This document shows positions 60,535 through 62,202 of a stretch of DNA of 64,000 nucleotides, piece by piece. Source of the DNA: Candidatus Limnocylindria bacterium (GTDB taxonomy: Bacteria; Chloroflexota; Limnocylindria; QHBO01); contig JBBQXD010000010.1 in the NCBI GenBank assembly GCA_038209995.1, positions 10,245 to 74,244 on the forward strand, read 5' to 3'. A program made the position numbers and the translations under genes. The notes beneath the pieces were generated by a model that saw only the letters and a program-made list of their open reading frames with translations, was not told the origin of the DNA and did no database searches. Each line of letters opens with the position of its first letter. Positions within the stretch are counted from its first letter, which is position 1.

Positions 60535-60636
60535 CGTCCCGAAGGAACCGCCGCTGCGAACCGTTGATGCAATCGCCGGTGTCGCGTACGGACCGTTGAT
60601 GTAATCGCCGGTGCCGTTGGCCGCCCCTTCGGGACG
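60535..60636. repeat. 22-bp direct repeat pair nested inside an 11-bp inverted repeat
   Basis: ACCGTTGATGYAATCGCCGGTG at 60560 and 60592; CGTCCCGAAGG at 60535 and CCTTCGGGACG at 60626. Confidence 0.8.
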
Positions 60637-60660: not shown

Positions 60661-60738
60661 TGTGGACGCAATCCCCCTTATCCCCGACTTTCGATGGCCG
60701 ATCGCTGGTTATCCACAGTTCGTCCCCAATGTGGACAG
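60661..60738. promoter_or_regulatory. Cluster of DnaA-box-like 9-mers
   Basis: Perfect TTATCCACA at 60709-60717; near matches at 60661, 60678 and 60730. Confidence 0.45.
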
Positions 60739-60793: not shown

Positions 60794-61225
60794 ATGACCG
60801 AACGACCGACCGTTCTCTTCCTCTGCACCCATAACAGCGCTCGCTCCCAGATGGCGGAGGGCCTGCTGCGCGCGATGGCGGGCGATCGCTTCGAGGTCCA
60901 CAGCGCGGGCACCGAGGCGACGCTCGTGCGGCCCGAGGCCATCGCGGCGATGGCCGAGATCGGGATCGACATCAGCGGCCAGGCGAGCAAGACGCTCACG
61001 CGCTACCTGCACGCCGACCTGGGCTGGCTCATCACCGTCTGCGACCAGGCCCGCGAGGCGTGCCCGGTCCTGCCGGCCGTCCGCAACCAGCGTCACTGGA
61101 GCATCGAGGATCCCGCGGACGTCGAGGGCGAAGGTCGCATGGCCGCCTTCCGTGCCGCGCGGGACGAGCTGCGCGAGCGCGTCGCTCGGTTCATCGATGA
61201 TGCGGGGCGGCCGCCGGCTGGCTGA
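60794..61225 (+). CDS. arsC: Arsenate reductase, thioredoxin-coupled (LMW-PTP fold)
   Basis: LFLCTHNSARSQMAE P-loop, ITVCDQAREACP and HWSIEDP. Confidence 0.88.
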   Translation: MTERPTVLFLCTHNSARSQMAEGLLRAMAGDRFEVHSAGTEATLVRPEAIAAMAEIGIDISGQASKTLTRYLHADLGWLITVCDQAREACPVLPAVRNQRHWSIEDPADVEGEGRMAAFRAARDELRERVARFIDDAGRPPAG

Positions 61226-61241
61226 CCGTCCCGCATCGGTC

Positions 61242-61280
61242 TCAGCAGCAGTCCTGGCAGCAATCAGGGTCGCAGCACAT
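61242..61280 (-). CDS. 12-aa Cys-rich micropeptide MCCDPDCCQDCC (putative metal/metalloid chelator)
   Basis: ATG TGC TGC GAC CCT GAT TGC TGC CAG GAC TGC TGC TGA, with AAGGAGGTGA SD 6 nt upstream. Confidence 0.75.
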   Translation of the reverse strand: MCCDPDCCQDCC

Positions 61281-61305
61281 GACGGATCACCTCCTTCCAT
61301 CGCCG

Positions 61306-61356
61306 ACCGTACCCTTGATATTGATCGTGGTCAATATTGACGTGAACCGATATGCT
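61306..61356. promoter_or_regulatory. Divergent promoters with ArsR-type operator palindromes
   Basis: ATATTGA-N6-TCAATAT (61318-61337) and ATATTGA-N6-CCGATAT (61334-61353); minus strand TTGACC-17-TACGGT; plus strand TATGCT. Confidence 0.75.
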
Positions 61357-61366
61357 TCGCCGCGCA

Positions 61367-61684
61367 ATGAAGTCCTCCGACCCTGACGTCCGTCTGCTGG
61401 GTGCCCTGGCCGATCCGACGCGGCTCTCGATCGTGCGCCAGCTCGGCGCGGTCGGCCGCTCCGGCATGATCTGCGCCTGCGACTTCGTCGAGTGCTGCGA
61501 CGTCAGCCAGCCGACGATCAGCCACCACCTCAAGGTGCTGCGCAGCGCCGGGGTGGTGACGAGCGAGCGCCAGGGCACCAACATCTACTACGCGCTGGCG
61601 CCCGGGGTCGCGGAGCGCTACGCGGCCATCGGCGCCTCGCTCGCCGGTCTCGTGCCGCTGGCGGCGCTACCCTCGCCGACGTGA
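61367..61684 (+). CDS. arsR: ArsR/SmtB family metalloregulator
   Basis: ALADPTRLSIV, ICACDFVECC, SQPTISHHLKVLR and ERQGTNIYY. Confidence 0.9.
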   Translation: MKSSDPDVRLLGALADPTRLSIVRQLGAVGRSGMICACDFVECCDVSQPTISHHLKVLRSAGVVTSERQGTNIYYALAPGVAERYAAIGASLAGLVPLAALPSPT

Positions 61685-62202
61685 GCCGGACCGTCCCCGT
61701 CTGCCCGCATTGCGCGACCCGGGTCGAGCGGCCGCTCGGCTGCGAACGCTGCGGCTGGCGCTGGTACGCGAACCCGATGCCCGCCGCCGGCACCCTCGTC
61801 GAGCGGGTGAACACGGCCGGCGAGCCCGAGGTGCTCCTCCTGCGGCGTGCGGTGGAGCCGGGGCTCGGGGGGTGGGATCTTCCCGCCGGGTATCTCGAGA
61901 CCGGCGAGTCGGTCGAGGAGGCTGCCTGCCGCGAGACCGCCGAGGAGGCGGGCTTCGACGTTGAGCTGGTCGAGCTCATCGGCGTCTACACGTCGCGGCC
62001 GGGCAACGCGGTGAGCACGATCTACCTCGCCCGACCGGTGCAGCCGGGCGTATCGGTCCATACCGATGCCGAGTCGTCCGACCACGCCTGGGTGACGCGC
62101 GCGGATACTGCCGCATGGCTGCCGCGCATGGCGTTCCGATCGATGGCCACCGCCCTCGCCGACTGGGCCGAGGGTCGCCGCGGCGTGCCGCGCGACTGGT
62201 AG
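61681..62202 (+). CDS. NUDIX hydrolase with N-terminal zinc ribbon
   Basis: CPHC...CERC; Nudix box [22 protein letters not shown]; GTGA overlap with arsR. Confidence 0.9.

What the first reader, a model, noticed from the sequence alone, without database searches (positions are those of the whole stretch)
61242..61684. ArsR-controlled 12-residue hexa-cysteine peptide (MCCDPDCCQDCC): candidate gene-encoded arsenite/metal chelator
Seen: a 39-bp ORF, below the ORF-track cutoff, encodes three vicinal Cys-Cys pairs spaced by acidic residues. It has a full-length SD (AAGGAGGTGA, 6-nt spacer) in a window where many genes have no SD. It also has a TTGACC-17bp-TACGGT promoter whose -35 and spacer are covered by the perfect palindrome ATATTGA-N6-TCAATAT. 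It is divergent from an arsR carrying CAC/CC ligands and convergent with arsC. No arsB or acr3 efflux gene is present in the window. Established: As(III) binds three thiolates; ArsR repressors bind such inverted repeats; vicinal Cys pairs bind As(III) in ArsD; bacterial metallothioneins such as SmtA are several times longer. Inference: a highly expressed, phytochelatin-like minimal sequestering peptide that may mop up the As(III) made by ArsC, or other soft metals.
Basis: partly seen in the sequence, partly recalled or inferred. Interest (0 to 1): 0.88.

Follow-up and report, generated by a model that had tools for sequence, protein, structure and literature searches.

The report
Tiny cysteine-rich peptide gene in arsenic operons
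A real, conserved and so far unannotated gene for a 12-residue peptide that is half cysteine sits under the arsenic repressor ArsR in a group of uncultured soil bacteria, and it most likely binds arsenite.

Summary
Window 61242-61280 (-) encodes MCCDPDCCQDCC, preceded by the longest Shine-Dalgarno sequence in the 2.25-Mb genome. Its promoter lies under a perfect ArsR-type palindrome, it is divergent from arsR, and it is convergent with a thioredoxin-type arsC.

It is not a chance ORF. I found 37 distinct peptides of 12-26 residues (39% Cys, 17% Asp, 14% Gly; nearly all end in -CC) in relatives of the class Candidatus Limnocylindria (Chloroflexota) and in three Actinomycetota MAGs. Operator, -10, SD and Cys codons are conserved, while the spacers, one or two middle codons and the stop codon drift. 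Length changes are in frame, and a hairpin follows the stop.

Among loci found through the peptide alone, 18 of 19 have the same arsR type within 600 bp. arsC or arsM is usually next to it.

Limnocylindria ArsM enzymes end in the same Gly/Cys...CC tail. One Actinomycetota locus has a tail-less arsM followed directly by the peptide gene.

No Pfam, NCBIfam or Rfam family matched, the relatives tested are absent from 15 billion predicted proteins, and I found no paper on it.

Arsenite binding, induction and translation are inferred, not shown. The genome has no acr3 or arsB, so a buffer or ArsM-delivery role is plausible.

The parts
61242..61280 (-). Mini-gene: 12 codons plus TGA stop, MCCDPDCCQDCC
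   Evidence: Translation. Conserved in 6 other genomes of the same genus. Codons 1-8 show only three variable sites, all synonymous third positions, and length changes are in frame. 37 distinct family members were found.
61284..61296 (-). Shine-Dalgarno sequence AAGGAGGTGATCC; its 10-nt core AAGGAGGTGA ends 6 nt before the ATG
   Evidence: Read. The 12-mer is unique in the genome. Pairwise identity of the SD block among 7 same-genus loci is 0.97, against 0.41-0.46 for the flanking spacers.
61306..61311 (-). Candidate -10 hexamer TACGGT (TAnnGT in all 7 same-genus loci)
   Evidence: Alignment A1; block identity 0.76. Not called by the sigma-70 scan. Function is inferred.
61329..61334 (-). Candidate -35 hexamer TTGACC, 17 nt upstream of the -10
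   Evidence: Read. TTGAC is invariant in A1. Function is inferred.
61318..61337 (.). Operator 1: perfect inverted repeat ATATTGA-N6-TCAATAT over the -35 and spacer of the mini-gene promoter
   Evidence: 0 mismatches. The block is conserved across genera. ArsR binding is inferred.
61334..61353 (.). Operator 2: ATATTGA-N6-cCGATAT. It overlaps operator 1 by 4 bp and reaches into the likely arsR -10 (TATGCT, 61351-61356)
   Evidence: 1 mismatch. The only other site in the genome with at most 1 mismatch lies upstream of the second arsR-arsM pair on contig C12.
61199..61237 (-). Stem-loop just after the stop. It overlaps the arsC stop and is a candidate two-way terminator without a U-run
   Evidence: Fold. 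Sixty-nt stretches downstream of the stop in 41 loci fold better than shuffles (mean z -2.4; 26 of 41 below -2). The terminator scan found none.
61367..61684 (+). arsR (an in-frame alternative start lies at 61352), with the Cys motif CACDFVECC
   Evidence: NCBIfam NF033788, 84.9 bits against a cut-off of 55. The motif C-A-C-D-x4-C-C is invariant in 21 aligned relatives.
60794..61225 (+). arsC, a low-molecular-weight-phosphatase type arsenate reductase (thioredoxin type), convergent with the mini-gene
   Evidence: TIGR02691 at E 4.5e-37, 127 bits, below the curated 174 cut-off. The CTHNSARS loop and the VCDQAREAC pair were read.
61681..62202 (+). Nudix hydrolase gene whose GTG start overlaps the arsR stop (GTGA); it is probably co-transcribed with arsR
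   Evidence: Weak Nudix family hits. arsR-Nudix synteny is kept in 12 of 39 mini-gene loci.

Best explanation
This is a genuine protein-coding mini-gene, a member of an unannotated family of 12-26-residue polycysteine peptides that belong to the ArsR regulon.

Proposed mechanism:
1. Without arsenic, ArsR dimers sit on two overlapping 7-6-7 inverted repeats between the divergent genes. They block both the mini-gene promoter and the arsR promoter.
2. As(III), made by ArsC from arsenate or taken up directly, binds the ArsR cysteines and releases the repressor.
3. A transcript of about 100 nt is made. It consists of a short leader, a 13-nt SD, 12 codons and a hairpin, and it is translated very efficiently.
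4. The peptide binds As(III) through three thiolates per arsenic, so up to two As per peptide. It carries six Cys in three vicinal pairs and is kept soluble by Asp.
5. In a cell without Acr3 or ArsB it buffers free As(III), or hands it to the arsenite methyltransferase ArsM. ArsM's own C-terminal tail carries the same motif.

Shown here: the gene is under purifying selection as a coding sequence, and it is physically and evolutionarily tied to arsR, arsC and arsM.

Inferred: ArsR binding to the operator, induction by arsenic, translation level, arsenic binding, and the fate of the complex.

My odds: real coding gene 0.9; ArsR-controlled 0.85; binds As(III) or a related soft metal(loid) 0.7.
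For: Conservation within the genus:
- All six other same-genus loci that hold the stretch keep the ORF (7 loci with the window).
- Codons 1-8 show 3 variable sites, all synonymous third positions. The two last Cys codons are invariant. The middle of the ORF takes Q, N, P, S, GGG or GGS with in-frame length change. The stop is TGA, TAG or TAA.
- Pairwise identity is 0.81 for the operator, 0.76 for the -10, 0.97 for the SD and 0.94-1.0 for the Cys-coding parts. Spacers score 0.40-0.46.

Spread:
- A strict pattern (SD, ATG...CC-stop) hit 45 of 401 genomes of the class. By my reading of the 45 matched strings, 34 encode peptides with at least 5 Cys. The reversed-pattern control gave 5 hits.
- Outside the class, 0 of 353 genomes of the phylum had a Cys-rich hit.
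- In all there are 37 distinct peptides, and 40 of 42 loci end in -CC.

Linkage:
- Among the 19 family loci fetched through the peptide pattern alone, 18 have this arsR type within 600 bp. The 19th is cut 28 nt upstream.
- Over all 39 non-redundant loci, arsR lies within 600 bp in 34 and is divergent in 33. arsC lies within 700 bp in 17. arsC or arsM is present in the locus in 26.
- The operator occurs with at most 1 mismatch only here and upstream of the arsR2-arsM pair. That arsM is confirmed by NF008823, 292.6 bits against a cut-off of 263.

ArsM link:
- 27 of 31 distinct complete ArsM genes in the Chloroflexota loci end in a Gly/Cys tail. Twenty-one end in -CC and 3 in -CCS, for example ...GCGCGSGGCC.
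- In L112 a tail-less arsM is followed 47 nt later by an SD and a 19-residue, 6-Cys ORF.

Efflux: no acr3 or arsB in the genome. acr3 scores above its cut-off in only 2 of 61 relatives.

Chemistry: vicinal Cys pairs at the C-terminus of ArsD (Cys112-113, Cys119-120) and Cys12-13-18 are described as metalloid sites. I read this in passages of PMC4562236, which cite Li et al. 2001 and Lin et al. 2007.
Against: - There is no direct evidence of transcription, translation, induction or binding.
- The only RNA run that shares words with the stretch has no contig over 61082-61410.
- The sigma-70 and terminator scans call nothing here.
- The metal specificity of this ArsR type is not established. No solved structure has the same Cys motif.
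- Two same-genus genomes (G004 and G005) kept the peptide gene but lost the adjacent arsR. Control there would have to come in trans from the second arsR.
- In the second genus (g2), ArsM has its own tail and the peptide is present as well. The peptide is therefore not simply a replacement for the tail.
- Many Limnocylindria arsR loci lack the mini-gene: 9 of 19 in the first set and 16 of 24 in the named set.
- Across wider same-length pairs, codon differences are 52 synonymous against 73 non-synonymous. Only the Cys framework is tightly held.
Confidence: 0.6

Rival explanations
1. It is a general soft-metal mini-metallothionein (for Cd, Zn, Cu(I), Hg or Pb) under an ArsR/SmtB-type sensor, analogous to SmtB-SmtA. 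Arsenic is not its main ligand.
For: The layout is a divergent repressor plus a Cys-rich product, as in smtB-smtA (recalled). The peptide is Cys-, Asp- and Gly-rich and almost free of aromatic residues. The metal selectivity of this ArsR type is untested, and the closest solved relatives include Ni, Zn and other sensors.
Against: The neighbours are arsC and arsM. I saw no metal pump or other metal gene among the neighbours I checked. The same operator controls arsR2-arsM. The peptide shares its C-terminal motif with ArsM tails.
Confidence: 0.13
2. It is a regulatory leader peptide. Ribosomes pausing on the Cys codons sense cysteine or thiol supply and control a downstream gene or the antisense arsC. 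The peptide itself has no job. This is how the polycysteine short ORFs of mycobacteria work.
For: Consecutive Cys codons in short ORFs act as cysteine-responsive attenuators in Mycobacterium smegmatis (bioRxiv 10.1101/834739; I read the abstract and section 13). Arsenic stress drains thiols. In 14 of 39 loci the ORF runs toward a convergent arsC.
Against: Those ORFs are leaderless and are the first gene of an operon. This one has the strongest SD in the genome. A hairpin follows its stop directly. In the window the neighbouring genes downstream, arsC and upp, both lie on the opposite strand. Downstream neighbours differ between genera. Selection also keeps the acidic residues, the Gly residues and the terminal -CC, not only runs of Cys.
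Confidence: 0.07
3. It has another peptide function: a thiol or redox partner for ArsC or ArsM, a co-inducer that loads ArsR, or a precursor of a modified peptide.
For: It is tightly linked to arsC and arsM. In genus g2, in family f3 and in some Actinomycetota loci it is co-transcribed with a conserved ~50-residue protein of unknown function.
Against: No modifying enzyme lies beside the gene in the window: the neighbours identified are arsC, arsR, Nudix and upp, plus a malate-dehydrogenase-like ORF that I named by eye. Trx-type ArsC has its own Cys relay. Nothing speaks specifically for these roles.
Confidence: 0.12
4. It is not a gene. It is a chance ORF inside a conserved non-coding regulatory region or small RNA.
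For: It is very short, gene callers do not call it, and it is GC-rich DNA. No expression data exist.
Against: Variation at synonymous third positions, in-frame length changes, a conserved SD at fixed distance and free choice of stop codon all point to coding. There are 37 distinct peptides with the same framework. Only 5 Cys-rich short ORFs exist in the whole genome, and only this one has an SD. There is no Rfam match.
Confidence: 0.03

Closest known systems
SmtB-SmtA (cyanobacterial metallothionein under an ArsR/SmtB repressor) and other bacterial metallothioneins (BmtA, MymT); recalled, apart from abstracts seen in the listing
   Same: An ArsR/SmtB-family repressor is transcribed divergently from a small, Cys-rich, aromatic-poor product whose promoter lies under the repressor's inverted repeat.
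   Different: The product has 12-26 residues, against about 50-56. Pfam and NCBIfam give no match. The neighbours are arsC and arsM, which points to arsenic rather than Zn, Cd or Cu.
Vicinal-cysteine As(III) sites of ArsD (Cys12-13-18; C-terminal Cys112-113 and Cys119-120)
   Same: CC pairs a few residues apart, including a pair at the very C-terminus, are described as metalloid sites in an ars-operon protein (passages of PMC4562236).
   Different: ArsD is a folded protein of about 120 residues that works with ArsA. Here the motif stands alone as the whole gene product. I saw no arsD or arsA in the loci I inspected.
Cys-rich C-terminal tail of arsenite methyltransferase ArsM
   Same: The same ending, C-x-C-G-x-G-x-CC-stop, occurs in ArsM of the same genome and class: 27 of 31 have a Gly/Cys tail. 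In L112 a tail-less arsM is followed directly by the peptide gene.
   Different: It is free-standing, has its own promoter, SD and hairpin, and is often placed with arsC rather than arsM. My searches found nothing in print on the tail's function.
Polycysteine leaderless short ORFs of mycobacteria (cysteine-responsive attenuators), bioRxiv 10.1101/834739
   Same: Unannotated short ORFs with consecutive Cys codons in high-GC bacteria.
   Different: Those are leaderless, lead an operon of cysteine-metabolism genes and act in cis (abstract and section 13). This one has a 13-nt SD, ends at a hairpin, has no downstream partner and sits in ars loci.
Phytochelatins and the 25-26-residue fungal copper metallothioneins (recalled)
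   Same: Very short thiol-rich peptides that bind soft metal(loid)s, As(III) included.
   Different: Phytochelatins are made by an enzyme from glutathione and have gamma-Glu links. The fungal peptides are eukaryotic, bind copper and are twice as long as the window's peptide.

Membership tests
ArsR/SmtB metalloregulator (the neighbouring gene) | Winged-helix HTH_5 fold, with a score above the curated family cut-off | tested here: met
   NF033788 scores 84.9 bits against a cut-off of 55. PDB relatives are all ArsR/SmtB proteins.
ArsR/SmtB metalloregulator (the neighbouring gene) | Three-cysteine As(III) site and As(III)-dependent release from DNA | not testable with these tools
   The motif CACDFVECC is invariant in 21 relatives. 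Binding and release were not measured.
Metallothionein (operational class) | Low mass, about 30% Cys or more, few or no aromatic residues | tested here: met
   12 residues, 6 of them Cys, no aromatic residue. Family composition is Cys 39%, Phe 0.5%, Tyr 0.2%.
Metallothionein (operational class) | Binds metal ions in thiolate clusters | not testable with these tools
   No binding assay or suitable prediction is available.
Known bacterial metallothionein families in Pfam and NCBIfam (sequence homology) | Match to a curated family model | tested here: not met
   Four relatives of 20-26 residues gave 0 families at E up to 10 in Pfam and NCBIfam. The 12-mer itself is below the tools' 20-residue minimum.
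Mycobacterial polycysteine leaderless sORF attenuators | Leaderless mRNA, with no SD | tested here: not met
   A 13-nt SD lies upstream of the ATG and is conserved.
Mycobacterial polycysteine leaderless sORF attenuators | First ORF of an operon with co-directional downstream genes | tested here: not met
   arsC is convergent 16 bp away and a hairpin follows the stop. Downstream neighbours vary.
Mycobacterial polycysteine leaderless sORF attenuators | At least two consecutive Cys codons | tested here: met
   Three CC pairs.
ArsD metallochaperone | Thioredoxin-like protein of about 120 residues with Cys12-Cys13-Cys18 | tested here: not met
   The product has 12 residues. Only the vicinal-pair motif resembles ArsD.
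Phytochelatin | (gamma-Glu-Cys)n-Gly made by phytochelatin synthase, not by the ribosome | tested here: not met
   The peptide is encoded by an ORF with SD, start and stop.
RiPP precursor | A modifying enzyme encoded beside the precursor | tested here: not met
   The window's neighbours are upp, arsC, arsR and Nudix, plus a malate-dehydrogenase-like ORF that I named by eye. None is a known maturase. A distant enzyme cannot be excluded.

The most novel reading that the evidence does not exclude
These 11-25-residue polycysteine peptides are a new class of ribosomally made arsenic carriers. Each is a free-standing version of the ArsM tail that captures As(III) made by ArsC and delivers it in trans to ArsM for methylation. 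This would give efflux-less Limnocylindria, which are abundant in soils, a capture-and-methylate route. The peptides would also be among the shortest stand-alone functional gene products known in bacteria.
Probability: 0.3. Interest if true: 0.85.

Novelty: new variant of a known kind. Interest (0 to 1): 0.74.

Why it matters
If the peptide binds As(III), it would be the smallest gene-encoded metallothionein-like product that I know of (recalled, not searched systematically). It would also add a component to bacterial arsenic resistance that gene callers miss because it is below their length limits.

It would suggest how a widespread, uncultured soil and freshwater lineage copes with the arsenite its own ArsC makes, although it mostly lacks Acr3. 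It would also point to a function for the Cys-rich tails of ArsM enzymes.

In practice, a 12-residue, genetically encodable As(III) ligand with a matched ArsR operator is a ready-made part for biosensors and for bioaccumulation strains.

It is also a clean example of selection being demonstrable on a 39-bp gene.

Tried and rejected
Expression evidence. One search for sequencing runs found the stretch almost whole only in a DNA run that may be its source. The single RNA run (X20, 0.05 of the sampled words) laid contigs of relatives on parts of arsC, arsR and the Nudix gene but none over 61082-61410. Nothing can be said about expression. The small word shares in soil and rhizosphere DNA runs are not evidence of habitat. 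Contigs of relatives in X18 and X9 do span the mini-gene region at 80-90% likeness.

Scans and family searches.
- The sigma-70 promoter and intrinsic-terminator scans gave 0 sites.
- Rfam gave no family. The only hit had E 0.86 and lies elsewhere.
- Pfam and NCBIfam gave no hits on four 20-26-residue relatives.
- Eight relatives of 20-23 residues were looked up by exact sequence among about 15 billion proteins. None is there.
- The PDB sequence search with ArsR found no relative with the same Cys motif.

Literature. I found no paper on a Cys-rich mini-peptide in ars operons, on ArsM tail function, or on arsenic genes of Limnocylindria. Supplements were not consulted.

Not attempted.
- A collection-wide DNA pattern scan for the peptide was not run. 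I estimated hundreds to thousands of chance hits, so I spent the one genome-contig scan on the ArsR alignment instead.
- Structure prediction and complex prediction were not used, because the peptide is below their size limits.
- The search for homologous proteins and the search of protein representatives were not used either. The window's 12-residue peptide is below their size range, and the exact look-up of the 20-23-residue relatives had found none in the collection.

Readings considered and set aside.
- A leaderless ORF starting at the ATG at 61300-61298 (261 residues, antisense to arsC) is rejected. That ATG is not kept in any of the 6 same-genus relatives.
- An antisense-RNA role against arsC is set aside because the mini-gene is not next to arsC in genus g2.
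Full report
WHAT IS THERE.

The minus strand of window 61280-61242 reads ATG TGC TGC GAC CCT GAT TGC TGC CAG GAC TGC TGC TGA, which is MCCDPDCCQDCC.

Upstream on the same strand, in order, lie these elements:
- TTGACC (61334-61329)
- 17 nt of spacer
- TACGGT (61311-61306)
- 9 nt
- AAGGAGGTGA (61296-61287)
- 6 nt
- the ATG

Read on, the SD is AAGGAGGTGATCC. That is 13 nt complementary to the canonical bacterial 16S 3' end. The 16S sequence is recalled, because this assembly holds no 16S 3' end. The 12-mer AAGGAGGTGATC occurs once in the 2.25-Mb, 70.6% GC genome. AAGGAGGTG occurs 13 times, 6 of them with a start codon 4-9 nt downstream.

The perfect palindrome ATATTGA-N6-TCAATAT lies at 61318-61337. 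A second copy with one mismatch lies at 61334-61353 and overlaps it by 4 bp. It reaches into a likely arsR -10 (TATGCT, 61351-61356). The only other site in the genome with at most one mismatch sits in front of a second arsR, which is followed by arsM, on contig C12. The reversed-pattern control gave 0 hits.

The neighbours are:
- arsR (61367-61684, +). It scores 84.9 bits for NF033788 against a cut-off of 55 and carries CACDFVECC.
- A convergent low-molecular-weight-phosphatase type arsC (60794-61225, +). It matches TIGR02691 at E 4.5e-37, below the curated cut-off.
- A Nudix gene whose GTG start overlaps the arsR stop.

A stem-loop at 61199-61237 follows the peptide's stop and overlaps the arsC stop. 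The simple sigma-70 and terminator scans call nothing here.

IS IT MORE THAN CHANCE?

In the whole genome only 5 short ORFs have at least 4 Cys and at least 30% Cys. This is the only one with an SD.

The main evidence is comparative. A DNA search of 60 relatives, scripts and two fetched regions show the mini-gene in six other genomes of the same genus. Their peptides are MCCDPDCC followed by NDCC, PDCC, SDCC, GGGCC or GGSCC (the last in two genomes).

In the 7-way alignment, codons 1-8 vary at three sites only, and all three are synonymous third positions. The last two Cys codons are invariant. The middle changes residue and length in frame. The stop is TGA, TAG or TAA.

Pairwise identity by block:
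- operator 0.81
- -10 region 0.76
- SD 0.97
- ATG plus codons 2-8: 0.94
- last two Cys codons 1.0
- spacers between these blocks 0.40-0.46
- 40 columns after the stop 0.59

An ATG at 61300 that would open a long antisense ORF is not conserved.

THE FAMILY.

A strict pattern (GGAGGTG, 4-9 nt, ATG, 24-54 nt, TGY TGY TRA) matched 45 of 401 genomes of the class. The reversed control matched 5. Reading the 45 strings, 34 encode peptides with at least 5 Cys and 11 are chance matches. Twenty-one of the 34 are in one genus, g2 (21 of 52), and two are in another family, f3. The pattern misses TAG stops and weaker SDs, so the true frequency is higher.

In a phylum-wide sample, none of the 353 genomes outside the class had a Cys-rich hit.

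The one scan of named genomes, run with an alignment of 21 ArsR proteins, names the group as Candidatus Limnocylindria (Chloroflexota). Mini-genes lie beside 8 of the 24 best loci (L087-L110). They also lie beside 3 Actinomycetota MAG loci: L112, L136 and L159, the last a Gaiellaceae. None lies beside the remaining 53 loci, which are mostly Streptomyces.

In all I have 37 distinct peptides of 12-26 residues. Their composition is Cys 39%, Asp 17% and Gly 14%, with almost no hydrophobic or aromatic residues. Forty of 42 loci end in -CC (four of the 42 are the same genomes fetched twice).

Sixty-nt stretches after the stop fold better than shuffles. The mean z is -2.4, and 26 of 41 are below -2, using mononucleotide shuffles.

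Examples from published genomes: MRSECDCECCGDCCRTGCC, MRHDDGCCDGGCDCGPGCC, MVRCDCPCDCPGPCC.

Counts include loci from unpublished genomes (L015, L038, L046 and L055). No conclusion depends on them.

CONTEXT.

Among the 19 family loci that were fetched through the peptide pattern alone, and so without bias toward arsR, 18 have this arsR type within 600 bp. The 19th locus ends 28 nt upstream.

Over 39 non-redundant loci:
- arsR is within 600 bp in 34, divergent in 33 and co-directional upstream in 2.
- arsC is within 700 bp in 17, and convergent in 14.
- arsM is within 1.5 kb in 9.
- arsC or arsM is somewhere in the locus in 26.

Two same-genus genomes (G004 and G005) have lost the adjacent arsR but keep the promoter, the SD, an intact peptide gene, arsC and Nudix. 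In G004 a second arsR of this type, beside arsM, lies elsewhere in the genome.

The genome has no acr3 (TIGR00832) and no arsB (PF02040) (completeness 95%). acr3 scores above its cut-off in only 2 of 61 relatives.

THE ArsM LINK.

The second arsR of this genome is followed by a bona fide arsenite methyltransferase (NF008823, 292.6 bits against a cut-off of 263). That protein ends in ...GCGCGSGGCCS.

Of 31 distinct complete ArsM genes in the Chloroflexota loci, 27 end in such a Gly/Cys tail. Twenty-one end in -CC, 3 in -CCS, and 3 end in -CG or -CCG just after a Cys pair. Four have no tail. The tail motif C-x-C-G-x-G-x-CC-stop is the same as the C-terminal half of many of the peptides.

In L112 the ArsM stops right after the catalytic domain. 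Forty-seven nt later an SD and a 19-residue, 6-Cys ORF follow, and then arsC on the same strand. This fused-or-separate pattern argues that the peptide and ArsM work on the same thing.

MECHANISM.

The steps are those listed under Best explanation. ArsR on the two overlapping repeats blocks both divergent promoters. As(III) releases it. A transcript of about 100 nt is translated from an exceptionally strong SD. The peptide binds up to two As(III) and buffers them or passes them to ArsM.

Met removal, leaving an 11-mer, is expected from the known preference of methionine aminopeptidase for a small second residue (recalled). Three-thiolate coordination is the established As(III) chemistry (recalled). 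Vicinal Cys pairs are described as metalloid sites in ArsD, in passages of PMC4562236 read.

Every step is inferred. What is shown is selection on the coding sequence and linkage to arsR, arsC and arsM.

RIVALS.

A cysteine-sensing leader peptide is the nearest known thing in print (bioRxiv 10.1101/834739; abstract and section 13). Those ORFs are leaderless and head operons. This one has an SD, is followed by a hairpin and has no co-directional partner.

A generic Cd, Zn or Cu metallothionein cannot be excluded, but the neighbours are all arsenic genes.

A non-coding element is very unlikely given the substitution pattern.

Other peptide roles stay open: a redox partner, a co-inducer, or a modified peptide. 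Nothing specific supports them.

NOVELTY.

No Pfam, NCBIfam or Rfam family matched. None of the 8 relatives tested is among about 15 billion predicted proteins.

The concept is known: an ArsR/SmtB repressor beside a thiol-rich sequestering product. The size, the sequence family, the arsenic context and the tie to ArsM tails are new. I therefore rate it a new variant of a known kind, of high interest for arsenic biology and for small-protein annotation. No experimental support exists yet.

Noticed in passing
L045:1581-1733 (-), and the same position in L043, L046-L051, L055, L015, L031, L032 and L136: A conserved ~50-residue ORF sits between the ArsR-controlled promoter and the mini-gene in genus g2, in family f3 and in an Actinomycetota MAG. 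Its pattern is x-ELLASA-x-EAD-xx-R-x-AR-x-RR...CRRRLLGVLP...CEPC. It has no NCBIfam family. The protein atlas finds only clusters of hypothetical proteins of 49-55 residues, and the single taxon record names Chloroflexota. The window's own locus lacks it.
   Followed up: partly
L002:405-1226 (own genome, contig C12) and the ArsM genes in L012-L110: Arsenite methyltransferases of this class nearly always end in a Gly/Cys tail such as GCGCGSGGCC. ArsM proteins of Streptomyces and related actinomycetes often carry a longer tail, ACCGVNACCT...SGCGCQG. Two Actinomycetota ArsM genes (L112 and L161) lack a tail.
   Followed up: partly
window 61681-62202 (+): A Nudix hydrolase gene with an N-terminal four-Cys (CxxC...CxxC) stretch starts with a GTG that overlaps the arsR stop (GTGA). 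It stays next to arsR in 12 of 39 loci, so it is probably part of the ArsR regulon. I have no explanation for a Nudix enzyme there.
   Followed up: no
L026:2331-2542 (G004) and L025:708-919 (G005): Two same-genus genomes have lost the arsR gene between Nudix and the mini-gene. They keep the mini-gene, most of its operator, and arsC.
   Followed up: yes
window 61233-61239 (-), and just after the stop in L009, L010, L026, L045 and L016: A short string, CCGATGC, between the stop codon and the hairpin is kept across genera although it lies outside the ORF. Unexplained.
   Followed up: no
window 60560-60581 and 60592-60613 (+): Two 22-nt direct repeats (ACCGTTGATG-C/T-AATCGCCGGTG), 32 nt apart, lie between upp and arsC. 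No Rfam family covers them.
   Followed up: no
window 60709-60717 and 60730-60738 (+): TTATCCACA, a string identical to the recalled DnaA-box consensus, faces an imperfect inverted copy, TGTGGACAG, 12 nt away, just upstream of arsC. A similar stretch seems to be kept in G004, judging from ORF translations.
   Followed up: no
whole genome G000 and 60 relatives: acr3 and arsB are not found in this 95%-complete genome. acr3 scores above its cut-off in only 2 of 61 relatives, although arsC, arsR and arsM are common.
   Followed up: partly
L045:2-1184 (-): In genus g2 a TIGR00153-family (PhoU-like) gene and a gene that looks by eye like a Pit-type phosphate transporter lie downstream of the mini-gene on the same strand. 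Arsenate is known to enter cells through Pit (recalled).
   Followed up: no
G195:C1:321129-321197 (row): One g2 genome has a one-base deletion relative to its close relative G079. The shift moves the last codons out of frame, so the -CC ending is lost while seven Cys remain. This could be a sequencing error or a decaying copy.
   Followed up: no
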